Shown one piece after another: positions 31,259 to 32,000 of a stretch of DNA of 32,000 nt. The stretch spans positions 630,001 to 662,000 of the forward strand of contig OW818675.1 in assembly GCA_942493095.1 (NCBI GenBank). Direction: 5' to 3'. Origin of the DNA: Candidatus Electronema halotolerans. GTDB lineage: Bacteria; Desulfobacterota; Desulfobulbia; Desulfobulbales; Desulfobulbaceae. A program made the position numbers and the translations under genes. Below the pieces are notes generated by a model, which was not told the DNA's origin, searched no databases, and saw only the letters and a program-made list of their open reading frames with translations. Each line of letters begins with the position of its first letter. Position 1 is the first letter of the stretch.

Positions 31259-32000
31259 TTACAGACCGTCGGTCCGATAGTTGGGGGCTTCGCGGGTGAT
31301 GATCACGTCATGGACATGCGATTCACGCAGACCCGCAGGCGAGATGCGGACAAATTTGGCCTTTTGGTGCAGGTCCAAGATCGTGCTTGCCCCGCAGTAG
31401 CCCATACCGGAGCGCAGACCGCCAAGGAGCTGGTAGATCATTTCCGAAATCGGGCCGCGATACGGCACCCGGCCTTCAATGCCTTCCGGCACCAGCTTGG
31501 AAGCCTCGCAAGTCTTTTTCTGAAAATAGCGGTCGCTGGAACCCTGCTGCATTGCGCCCAAGGAACCCATGCCCCGATATCCTTTGTATTTGCGGCCCTG
31601 ATAGAGGAAGACCTCGCCTGGACTCTCGTCTGTGCCAGCAAAGAGCGAGCCGATCATGACGCAGCTCGCGCCAATGCCAAGGGCTTTGCAGATGTCGCCG
31701 GAGTATTTGATGCCGCCGTCGGCAATGATCGGAATATGGTGTTCATCCGCAACCTTGACCGCATTTTTAAGCGCGGTGAGCTGAGGCACGCCCACGCCTG
31801 CGACGATCCGGGTGGTGCAAATTGAATTATGGACAACCGCGTTGTTGACGATGAAGCTGTGGCTTGGGCAGTCAACTTCAAGGTCATAGACCGGCATGCT
31901 CAGGCCGATGGGCCGCCGCTCCAGCATTTTGACAATCTGATAATCCCCCCCTGCAACCCGCTTTTCATGGGTGACATTCAGGCGTGTCCGGTACGATATC
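31259..32000 (-). CDS. guaB: IMP dehydrogenase, C-terminal part, interrupted by an intein (gene continues beyond the right edge)
   Basis: The C-extein (31259-31825) is canonical IMPDH from the catalytic loop onward: [15 protein letters not shown]...[27 protein letters not shown]...GK.YK.YRGMGS. The reading frame stays open upstream through intein-like sequence to nt 32000. Confidence 0.9.
31826..32000 (-). other. Intein, C-terminal splicing region (blocks F/G), inserted in guaB; N-terminal part lies outside the window
   Basis: My translation in frame with guaB is ...[58 protein letters not shown]. The +1 residue Ser of SICTTR follows directly. The pattern VYDLEV....HSF..NN.VVHN-S is the classical intein block F/G with terminal His-Asn. 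Confidence 0.8.

What the first reader, a model, noticed from the sequence alone, without database searches (positions are those of the whole stretch)
31826..32000. Intein inserted in IMP dehydrogenase exactly at the catalytic Cys loop (GPG | SICTTR)
The guaB frame reads ...[23 protein letters not shown] followed immediately by [15 protein letters not shown]. The first part is a textbook intein C-terminal splicing motif (block F, then block G ending His-Asn). The +1 Ser begins the universally conserved IMPDH active-site loop, and the catalytic Cys lies two residues further on. The frame upstream stays open to the window edge, so the rest of the intein (splicing block A, possibly a homing endonuclease) and the N-extein lie outside the window. 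Inteins typically sit in such ultra-conserved catalytic sites. Here IMPDH activity, and therefore guanine nucleotide supply, would depend on protein splicing. I cannot say from memory how common guaB inteins are at this site.
Basis: seen in the sequence. Interest (0 to 1): 0.7.

Follow-up and report, generated by a model that had tools for sequence, protein, structure and literature searches.

The report
Homing-endonuclease intein in guaB active site
The window ends inside a real self-splicing protein insert (an intein with a homing endonuclease) that interrupts IMP dehydrogenase just before its catalytic cysteine; this is an ordinary selfish element, sitting at the site already known from the IMPDH-1 split intein and found in well over a hundred other genomes.

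Summary
On the minus strand, window 31826-32000 encodes the last 58 residues of an intein (…[22 protein letters not shown]). These are followed in frame by Ser+1 and the IMPDH active-site loop SICTTR, then the 188-residue C-extein and guaA.

A public contig (L001) matches the last 1183 bases of the window exactly except for one base. It supplies the missing upstream part: a 301-residue N-extein ending GVGPG, then an intein starting CFAAGARVLM. The composite precursor is 867 aa, with a 378-aa intein that has Cys1, TADH (block B), two LAGLIDADG motifs, block F, and His-Asn.

Removing the intein in silico gives a 489-aa protein. It matches the IMPDH equivalog model end to end and aligns without gaps to intein-less Candidatus Electrothrix GuaB.

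Related metagenome contigs hold intact, internally deleted, frame-broken and intein-less alleles. dN/dS of the intein is about 0.11.

The same intein at the same site occurs in at least 167 GTDB species representatives from many phyla and in 17 large-virus contigs. The site is the GGG/SIC junction of the IMPDH-1 split intein described in 2009.

Verdict: a real intein, a new member of a known kind, of low to moderate interest. Splicing and endonuclease activity are inferred, not shown.

The parts
31826..32000 (-). C-terminal 58 codons of the guaB intein (plus one base of the next codon at the window edge). It holds the end of the endonuclease-to-Hint linker, block F ([13 protein letters not shown]) and block G (VVHN).
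   Evidence: translation. (weak hits to the ends of intein models). (D359, E361, H367, S368, F369, N373, V376, H377 and N378 are invariant in 19 homologues). (identical to L001).
31945..31951 (-). Run of 7 G on the coding strand (7 C on the + strand) inside the intein, coding the Gly-Gly of VAGGD. The otherwise identical contig L001 has 6 G, which breaks the frame.
   Evidence: Relatives L121 and L119 have one residue fewer here (TGE / TGD) and no G run.
31823..31825 (-). Ser+1 codon: the first residue of the C-extein and the nucleophile for the transesterification step.
   Evidence: Ser is kept at +1 in all bacterial and viral homologues inspected.
31817..31819 (-). Codon of the IMPDH catalytic Cys (SIC), at position +3 from the splice junction.
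   Evidence: Its identity as the catalytic Cys follows from established knowledge of the IMPDH GSIC(T)T loop.
31259..31825 (-). guaB C-extein, 188 codons plus the stop codon at 31259-31261.
   Evidence: PF00478 residues 59-230, E 4e-81. (TIGR01302 positions 298-450)..
29685..31229 (-). guaA (GMP synthase), 29 bases downstream of guaB on the same strand. This is the usual guaBA arrangement.
   Evidence: GATase, NAD_synthase and GMP_synt_C domains.

Best explanation
The window ends inside a canonical class 1 intein with a LAGLIDADG homing endonuclease. It is inserted in frame in the chromosomal guaB gene of a Desulfobulbaceae bacterium related to Candidatus Electrothrix, between Gly301 and Ser302 of IMPDH (GVGPG|SICTTR), three residues before the catalytic Cys. 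The gene is translated as an 867-residue precursor. The inferred mechanism is the standard one. Cys1 makes a thioester with the N-extein (N-S acyl shift, helped by block B Thr63/His66). Ser+1 attacks it (transesterification). Asn378, helped by His377 and the block F Asp/His, cyclises and releases the 378-residue intein. An O-N shift then leaves a normal peptide bond, giving a 489-residue IMPDH with an intact active-site loop. The precursor should be inactive, so de novo GMP synthesis from this gene depends on splicing. The central domain (two LAGLIDADG motifs with their acidic residues, FLGDG and LDSDG) is expected to cut intein-less guaB alleles at this conserved sequence. That would drive homing, which explains the patchy spread of the element across phyla and viruses. 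What is shown: the sequence anatomy, the clean insertion, the conservation of catalytic residues, purifying selection, the fold of a 61%-identical homologue, and the distribution. What is inferred: actual splicing, inactivity of the precursor, and endonuclease activity.
For: - **Junction in the window:** the sequence reads …VVHN|SICTTR and the frame is open to the window edge. The IMPDH models start exactly at Ser59.
- **Upstream half:** L001 matches window 30818-32000 over 1183 bases with 0 mismatches and 1 indel. It gives a composite of 301 + 378 + 188 residues.
- **Domain hits on the composite:** Pfam finds IMPDH in two stretches, CBS, Hom_end_hint above its cut-off from the first intein residue, and LAGLIDADG_3 above its cut-off. 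PDB sequence search finds the PI-SceI N-terminus, E 9e-6.
- **Conserved residues:** in 19 aligned inteins C1, T63, D65, H66, D359, E361, H367, H377 and N378 are invariant. G165-D166-G167 and S264-D265-G266 are conserved in at least 90%.
- **Clean insertion:** the spliced product aligns in one gapless block at 84% identity with intein-less Ca. Electrothrix AX2 and AR3 GuaB. It matches TIGR01302 positions 1-450 of 450 at 627 bits, against a cut-off of 481.5.
- **Fold:** the AlphaFold model of a 61%-identical homologue has pLDDT 94. Its best PDB matches are the TliVMA intein (E 4e-17), PI-SceI, the PhoVMA intein and PI-PfuI, and the endonuclease part matches I-DmoI.
- **Independent intact relative:** L121 is a single 866-codon ORF, 88% identical over residues 1-867.
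- **Selection:** dN/dS of the intein is 0.106-0.114 (endonuclease part 0.126-0.145), against 0.03-0.08 for the exteins, in three pairwise comparisons.
- **Polymorphism in the clade:** intein-less alleles exist in close relatives (L123, L129, Electrothrix).
- **Distribution:** the same intein sits at the same site in 167 GTDB species representatives, in one frame with both exteins in 89 of the 92 loci where all three parts were found. It also occurs in 17 large-virus contigs.
Against: - The N-terminal 320 intein residues and the N-extein are not in the window. They come from L001, whose G run is one base shorter and breaks the frame inside the intein.
- A second relative, L084, also has a frame-breaking 80-base deletion over LAGLIDADG motif 1. 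So some copies in this clade may be dead, or those assemblies may be wrong.
- No experiment shows splicing or DNA cleavage.
- On their own the 58 in-window residues reach only E 0.04 against Pfam PF14890, below its cut-off.
Confidence: 0.9

Rival explanations
1. guaB is a pseudogene in this organism. On this view the 6-G version in L001 is the true sequence, the window's 7 G is a polishing or consensus artefact, and the intein-bearing gene is decaying.
For: L001 is identical to the window over 1183 bases except for 6 G instead of 7 G, which splits the gene into two called ORFs. Relative L084 also carries a frame-breaking 80-base deletion in the intein.
Against: In the window the frame is open for all 247 codons. 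The C-extein has dN/dS of 0.03-0.075 and the intein about 0.11, with no other lesion. Relatives L121 and L119 are intact single ORFs. A one-base difference in a 7-base homopolymer is a typical assembly or sequencing error. guaA follows directly downstream, as in a working operon.
Confidence: 0.06
2. The intein still splices but its endonuclease is no longer active. It would then be a resident, vertically inherited intein on the way to becoming a mini-intein, not a mobile element.
For: G+C (0.59) and GC3 (0.70) of the intein equal those of the exteins, so it is not a recent arrival. Relatives show decay in and next to the endonuclease region. L119 has a 25-residue in-frame deletion just upstream of the endonuclease domain. 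L084 has lost motif 1. P0185 has degenerate motifs and a 317-residue intein.
Against: Both LAGLIDADG motifs with their Asp residues are intact in this copy. dN/dS of the endonuclease part is 0.126-0.145, which indicates purifying selection. Intein-plus and intein-less alleles coexist in the clade. The element is spread across many phyla and viruses with identity equal to or above that of the N-extein.
Confidence: 0.25
3. It is a split intein in a fractured gene, like IMPDH-1. The N and C halves of guaB would be separate genes, each with half an intein, joined by trans-splicing.
For: The only IMPDH inteins described in the papers I could search are split. They sit at the same junction, GGG/SIC. 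Gene callers split L001 and L084 into two genes.
Against: The frame is open from the C-extein to the window edge with no start-codon context needed. L001 plus the window, and L121 and L119, are contiguous, with the endonuclease inside the intein rather than free-standing. The two-gene calls are explained by a one-base indel and an 80-base deletion.
Confidence: 0.01
4. It is a non-splicing Hint-like insertion (a bacterial intein-like domain, or an inserted domain retained in the mature enzyme).
For: Weak Pfam hits to the Vint, Hint_2 and Hint families, all below their cut-offs.
Against: All the intein-specific features are present: Cys1, TxxH, a terminal His-Asn and a +1 Ser. The insertion lies in the catalytic loop, three residues from the catalytic Cys. 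It is absent from close relatives without any compensating change. Its fold is closest to true endonuclease-bearing inteins.
Confidence: 0.02

Closest known systems
IMPDH-1 (and IMPDH-2, -3) naturally split inteins from Global Ocean Sampling metagenomes (Dassa et al. 2009, PMC2677866)
   Same: The host protein family and the insertion point are the same: the native junction is GGG/SIC (PMC7090010 supplement) against GPG/SIC here. Both have Cys1, a …VVHN end and Ser+1. IMPDH-1 shows experimentally that an intein at this junction splices efficiently.
   Different: IMPDH-1 is split into two genes with a free-standing Vsr-like endonuclease gene between them. This one is contiguous and carries an internal LAGLIDADG endonuclease. 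Sequence similarity is low: 26% over 73 N-terminal residues (E 4e-5) and 11 of 23 residues at the C-terminus. They share a site, but close common descent is not shown.
PI-SceI (yeast VMA1 intein) and the archaeal VMA inteins TliVMA and PhoVMA
   Same: The architecture is the same: a Hint splicing domain interrupted by a two-motif LAGLIDADG homing endonuclease, and class 1 chemistry. These are the best matches by sequence (PI-SceI; PF05203 Hom_end_hint) and by fold (7qsu E 4e-17, 1vde E 8e-14).
   Different: The host is different (V-ATPase catalytic subunit) and sequence identity in the fold alignments is only 12-16%. The intein here is smaller than PI-SceI (378 against 454 residues). The fold comparison used a 61%-identical homologue, not this protein.
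Contiguous guaB/IMPDH-family inteins already present in public genomes and metagenomes but not described in the literature I could search
   Same: Identity is 54-73% over all 378 residues with an identical insertion site. They occur in 167 GTDB species representatives, including cultured Roseithermus sacchariphilus, Thiocystis minor DSM 178 and Deinococcus pimensis DSM 21231. There are 154 protein clusters, one of which JGI names 'IMP dehydrogenase/GMP reductase/intein/homing endonuclease'.
   Different: None of the 80 best-matching GTDB representative loci listed is from Desulfobulbaceae; the best is Kofleriaceae at 73%. The window's lineage appears only in metagenome contigs (L001, L084, L119-L121).

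Membership tests
Class 1 intein | In-frame insertion whose removal restores an uninterrupted host protein | tested here: met
   The spliced product aligns in one gapless block (84% identity) with intein-less Electrothrix GuaB. It matches TIGR01302 positions 1-450 of 450 in one stretch, whereas the precursor matches in two.
Class 1 intein | Block A: Cys or Ser as the first intein residue | tested here: met
   Cys1 (CFAAGARVLM) follows GVGPG directly. It lies outside the window and comes from L001. Cys1 is invariant in 19 homologues.
Class 1 intein | Block B TxxH | tested here: met
   T63-A-D-H66. T63, D65 and H66 are invariant. This part is outside the window.
Class 1 intein | Blocks F and G: block F Asp and His, penultimate His, terminal Asn | tested here: met
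   [13 protein letters not shown]…VVHN is in the window itself. D359, H367, H377 and N378 are invariant.
Class 1 intein | Nucleophile (Ser, Thr or Cys) at +1 of the C-extein | tested here: met
   Ser+1 at window 31823-31825.
Class 1 intein | Hint fold | tested here: met
   Tested on a 61%-identical homologue only: pLDDT 94, with the TliVMA, PI-SceI, PhoVMA and PI-PfuI inteins as top PDB matches.
Class 1 intein | Autocatalytic protein splicing | not testable with these tools
   This needs expression of the precursor. Indirect support comes from purifying selection on the exteins downstream of the insert and from efficient splicing of IMPDH-1 at the same junction.
LAGLIDADG (two-motif) homing endonuclease domain | Two LAGLIDADG motifs, each ending in an acidic residue, in an I-DmoI-like fold | tested here: met
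   The motifs are YDLGYIFGTFLGDG and YLQGLFDGLLDSDG. PF14528 scores above its cut-off. GDG and SDG are conserved in at least 90% of homologues. I-DmoI structures match the homologue model at E 1e-6.
LAGLIDADG (two-motif) homing endonuclease domain | Site-specific cleavage of the intein-less allele | not testable with these tools
   Support is indirect only: dN/dS of 0.13-0.15 for this domain and a patchy cross-phylum distribution.
Split intein / fractured gene (IMPDH-1 type) | Host gene in two separate ORFs, each with half an intein, and a free-standing endonuclease gene between them | tested here: not met
   The precursor ORF is contiguous in the composite and in L121 and L119, with the endonuclease internal.
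IMP dehydrogenase GuaB (TIGR01302 equivalog) | Whole-protein score above the curated cut-off, with CBS pair and the GSIC catalytic loop | tested here: met
   The spliced product scores 627 bits and the precursor 595 bits, against a cut-off of 481.5. CBS domains are present. guaA lies downstream.

The most novel reading that the evidence does not exclude
Splicing of this intein might be conditional, for example gated by redox state through disulfides. Candidate cysteines are Cys1, the IMPDH catalytic Cys at +3, and the conserved internal cysteines (Cys42 in WCTG, and Cys364 in block F, which is at least 90% conserved). The intein would then act as a post-translational switch on guanine-nucleotide synthesis in a bacterium related to cable bacteria, which live across oxic-anoxic gradients. 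A weaker variant is that the 7-G tract inside the intein varies in length and switches guaB on and off. Nothing here tests either idea. They are not excluded, and redox-trapped intein precursors are known for other inteins (from my own knowledge of the field, not checked here).
Probability: 0.07. Interest if true: 0.6.

Novelty: new member of a known kind. Interest (0 to 1): 0.3.

Why it matters
For annotation, guaB here should be called as one 867-codon intein-containing gene, not as two fragments or a pseudogene. Gene callers split the near-identical contig L001 and many homologues into pieces.

For intein biology, the finding documents that the IMPDH catalytic-loop site holds more than split inteins. 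That site is best known from the split-intein tool IMPDH-1. It also carries a widespread contiguous allele with a LAGLIDADG endonuclease in bacteria of many phyla, in a Woesearchaeota archaeon (one truncated entry lacking the N-terminal junction) and in large viruses. Within one Desulfobulbaceae clade, intein-plus, internally deleted, frame-broken and empty alleles coexist. That is a compact natural example of the homing cycle.

In practical terms, the family offers new Ser+1 inteins and possibly a new meganuclease specificity for a very conserved DNA target.

None of this changes the understanding of how inteins work.

Tried and rejected
- **guaA look-up:** I looked for the exact guaA protein to get the window's own contig beyond position 32000. 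It is not on record.
- **Structure of the window's own intein:** I used the closest full-length homologue instead.
- **Independent copies of the G-run region:** an exact-DNA scan of JGI metagenomes found no match. A protein-based scan then gave L119-L121.
- **Literature on contiguous guaB/IMPDH inteins:** searches with 'IMP dehydrogenase', 'guaB', 'IMPDH', and 'inosine' plus 'LAGLIDADG', and the Novikova 2016 survey text, found only the split IMPDH-1 to -3 inteins. The supplements of Dassa 2009 and Novikova 2016 are not held. JBC 2012 (Carvajal-Vallejos) is not held.
- **Class 3 intein (considered and rejected):** the conserved block F Cys364 is not at the F:4 position, which is Asp359, and Cys1 is present.
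- **Internal starts in homologues (considered and rejected):** many homologues appear to start inside the N-extein (MVDTSHGHS…). In the two loci I checked the N-terminal part lies immediately upstream in another frame, most likely indel errors in these assemblies.
- **Source genome:** it is not among the GTDB representatives matched (best hit 73%).

Full report
**1. The observation**

The feature is on the minus strand. Window 31259-31999 translates as 247 codons with a single, terminal stop. The sequence reads [58 protein letters not shown], followed directly by [15 protein letters not shown]… and the rest of IMP dehydrogenase.

- The terminal Asn codon is at 31826-31828, Ser+1 at 31823-31825 and the catalytic Cys at 31817-31819.
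- Pfam IMPDH (E 4e-81) and the NCBIfam equivalog TIGR01302 begin at residue 59, the Ser, and ignore the first 58 residues.
- Alone, those 58 residues give only weak hits. All of them are to the C-terminal ends of intein models or to inteins embedded in intein-containing protein models: PF14890 positions 132-155 of 155 (E 0.04), TIGR01443, and intein-containing RtcB, GyrA, DnaB and Tes.
- The decisive evidence that this is not chance comes from homologues. Dozens of database proteins cover 98-99% of the fragment, insert included, at 60-70% identity.

**2. The missing half**

The exact guaA protein is not on record. The 222-residue ORF that starts at the internal Met of the fragment is on record, on a 3187-base Logan contig, L001.

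- L001 overlaps window 30818-32000. Over 1183 bases there are no mismatches and one indel: a run of 7 G in the window (31945-31951, coding strand) is 6 G in L001.
- With 6 G the frame breaks, which is why the gene caller produced two overlapping genes. With the window's 7 G the frame is continuous.
- The composite gene encodes 867 residues: a 301-residue N-extein ending …AVKVGVGPG, a 378-residue insert beginning CFAAGARVLMADG… and the 188-residue C-extein.
- G+C and third-position G+C of the insert equal those of the exteins (0.59 and 0.70). The insert is therefore not a recent arrival in this lineage.

**3. What it is**

- **Domains.** The composite hits IMPDH in two stretches, two CBS domains, PF05203 Hom_end_hint (above its cut-off, starting at the first insert residue) and PF14528 LAGLIDADG_3 (above its cut-off). 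The N-terminus resembles PI-SceI in the PDB (E 9e-6).
- **Conserved residues.** I aligned 19 full-length copies of the insert. C1, T63, D65, H66 (block B TxxH), D359, E361, H367 (block F), and H377 and N378 (block G) are invariant. The two endonuclease motifs FLGDG and LDSDG are conserved in at least 90%.
- **Class.** The near-invariant Cys364 in block F is not at the class 3 position, which is occupied by Asp359. With Cys1 present, this is a class 1 intein.
- **Clean insertion.** Removing the insert in silico gives a 489-residue protein. It aligns in a single gapless block at 84% identity with the intein-less GuaB of Ca. Electrothrix AX2 and AR3: …KVGVGPGSICTTR… against …KIGVGPGSICTTR…. It matches TIGR01302 positions 1-450 of 450 in one stretch at 627 bits.
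- **Fold.** The model has pLDDT 94 and pTM 0.92. Its best PDB matches are endonuclease-bearing inteins: TliVMA E 4e-17, PI-SceI, PhoVMA, PI-TkoII-type 2cw7 and PI-PfuI. The central domain matches I-DmoI.

**4. The lineage and its alleles**

The C-extein is closest to Ca. Electrothrix and Desulfobulbaceae IMPDH. The neighbourhood is ordinary chromosome: guaA directly downstream, plus thiC, resB/ccsA, comM-like, hisG, yebC and others. A protein-based scan of JGI metagenomes gave close relatives.

| Locus | State of the allele |
|---|---|
| L121 | Intact single ORF of 866 codons, 88% identical over residues 1-867 |
| L119 | Intact ORF of 841 codons, with a 25-residue in-frame deletion between block B and the endonuclease |
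| L120 | Partial, 95% identical |
| L123, L129 | Intein-less alleles: N-extein joined directly to C-extein in one frame |
| L084 | 80-base deletion removing LAGLIDADG motif 1 and shifting the frame |

One clade thus contains occupied, internally deleted, frame-broken and empty sites.

Pairwise dN/dS (Nei-Gojobori) against L121, L119 and L084:

| Region | dN/dS |
|---|---|
| Intein (whole) | 0.106-0.114 |
| Endonuclease part | 0.126-0.145 |
| Exteins | 0.03-0.08 |

The whole insert, endonuclease included, has been under purifying selection.

At the G run the relatives have one residue fewer (TGD or TGE instead of AGGD) and no homopolymer. This spot is a tolerant linker. The 6-G/7-G difference is either an assembly error or recent slippage, and I cannot tell which.

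**5. Distribution**

- The intein sequence finds 154 protein clusters (E ≤ 1e-5). Nearly all of the 120 listed are in IMPDH/GMP-reductase family proteins, and some are in CBS-less, GMP-reductase-like hosts with S-x-C variants of the loop. The exceptions are intein-only fragments and two apparent chimeras, P0208 and P0212.
- In one genome per GTDB species, 167 genomes encode a relative. This is a lower bound, because the scan is pattern-based. The 80 best have 54-73% identity over all 378 residues.
- They come from Myxococcota, Planctomycetota, Chloroflexota, Actinomycetota, Deinococcota, Rhodothermales, Bacteroidota and Pseudomonadota. They include cultured Roseithermus sacchariphilus, Thiocystis minor DSM 178 and Deinococcus pimensis DSM 21231. 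A Woesearchaeota archaeon also appears, as a truncated entry that covers about 70% of the intein and lacks the N-terminal junction.
- In 89 of the 92 loci where all three parts were found, the N-extein, intein and C-extein lie in one frame. Intein identity to ours is about equal to, and often above, that of the N-extein. This fits horizontal spread.
- Seventeen IMG/VR contigs (large phages and giant-virus bins) carry full-length relatives at 33-44% identity. All sit at the same G-x-G|C…HN|S-x-C-T/S/K-T-R site.

**6. Comparison with what is known**

- Dassa et al. 2009 reported IMPDH as a new intein host on the basis of three split inteins (IMPDH-1 to -3) in fractured genes with free-standing Vsr-like endonucleases (PMC2677866).
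- The native junction of IMPDH-1 is GGG/SIC (PMC7090010 supplementary file 1), which is the same site.
- IMPDH-1 splices fast and is a standard protein-engineering tool. An intein at this junction is therefore known to work.
- Similarity between IMPDH-1 and this intein is low: 26% over 73 residues and 11 of 23 residues at the C-terminus. They share a site, but close kinship is not shown.
- I found no paper in the searchable library that describes a contiguous, LAGLIDADG-bearing guaB intein. Such genes are, however, already in public databases, and one carries a JGI name that mentions the intein. NCBIfam has no intein-containing IMPDH model.

**7. Mechanism**

The residues present support the standard four-step class 1 pathway: Cys1 thioester, attack by Ser+1, Asn378 cyclisation and an O-N shift. 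The insertion point is three residues before the catalytic Cys, in the middle of the active-site loop. It is therefore reasonable to infer that the precursor is inactive and that GMP synthesis from this gene needs splicing. The endonuclease is expected to cut empty guaB alleles and drive homing. The anatomy, conservation, selection and clean insertion are shown. The activities are inferred.

**8. Verdict**

The element is a genuine intein and a new member of a known kind. It is not a new kind of system: the site, the chemistry and the architecture are all known, and the allele is widespread in existing data. Interest is low to moderate (0.3).

The main open points are the true length of the G run, whether this copy's endonuclease is still active, and whether splicing is conditional. 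The last is pure speculation at present.

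Noticed in passing
window 19440-22844 (-) and 23055-24080 (+): A 1134-residue fusion of a molybdopterin oxidoreductase module (Fe4S4, Molybdopterin and Molydop_binding domains) with a class V aminotransferase/cysteine-desulfurase module. It lies divergently next to an EgtD-like histidine methyltransferase (Methyltransf_33). 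From memory this matches the metallopterin-dependent ergothioneine synthase arrangement described for Caldithrix abyssi. I did not check this against the literature here.
   Followed up: partly
window 31945-31951 against L001 2054-2059: A homopolymer inside the intein has 7 G in the window (frame open) and 6 G in the otherwise identical Logan contig (frame broken). Relatives have no G run and one residue fewer at this spot. I cannot decide between an assembly error and real slippage.
   Followed up: partly
L084 about 1237-1248 (JGI 3300049828 contig Ga0499993_0003392): A relative with about 82% DNA identity has an 80-base deletion between two short TA(C/T)…TTT repeats. It removes LAGLIDADG motif 1 and shifts the frame, so guaB is called as two genes. 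This is either real decay or an assembly fault.
   Followed up: partly
L119 (Ga0316592_1002334), intein residues about 75-99: There is a 25-residue in-frame deletion between block B and the endonuclease domain in an otherwise intact 841-codon precursor with 95-98% identical exteins. It is a natural shortened variant of the same intein.
   Followed up: partly
L002 3295-3974 and L003 3292-3945: In two long contigs (Microthrixaceae and another actinobacterial bin, ENA ERZ250395xx) the IMPDH N-extein changes frame at the same place, just before VVD(T/S)SHGH. The intein-containing gene is therefore called from an internal Met. Several other database entries start at the same spot. Most likely these are indel errors in the assemblies, but the recurrence at one position was not explained.
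   Followed up: partly
L085-L101 (IMG/VR contigs, 26-43% G+C): Large phage contigs and giant-virus bins encode IMPDH/GMP-reductase-like genes carrying a full-length relative of this intein (33-44% identity) at the identical site. They are possible vectors for its spread.
   Followed up: partly
P0188, P0194, P0196, P0224: The same intein sits in CBS-less, GMP-reductase-like proteins from A+T-rich sources. The loop variants are SGAGCATR, SACLTR, SVCITR and SVCTTR, so the homing site tolerates variation at +2 to +5.
   Followed up: no
P0212 and P0208: Two short-contig proteins join part of this intein's endonuclease region to unrelated sequence: the C-terminus of a PDZ/M50 peptidase in one, and an HlyD-like N-terminus in the other. 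These are probably chimeric assemblies, but they could be rearrangements at endonuclease-cut sites.
   Followed up: no
composite gene against L121: Synonymous divergence of the intein (dS 0.62) is clearly lower than that of the flanking exteins (0.91-1.16). Against L119 the values are equal (about 0.5). This could mean the intein copies share a more recent ancestor than the host genes (homing between lineages), or it could reflect different codon constraints.
   Followed up: no
window 28777-29562 (-): A 261-residue protein has an N-terminal NYN ribonuclease-like domain and a C-terminal part with no Pfam match that looks like a cold-shock or OB fold (…GTVANFNADRGFGFF…). It lies between the T2SS-F/PilC-like gene and guaA.
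   Followed up: no
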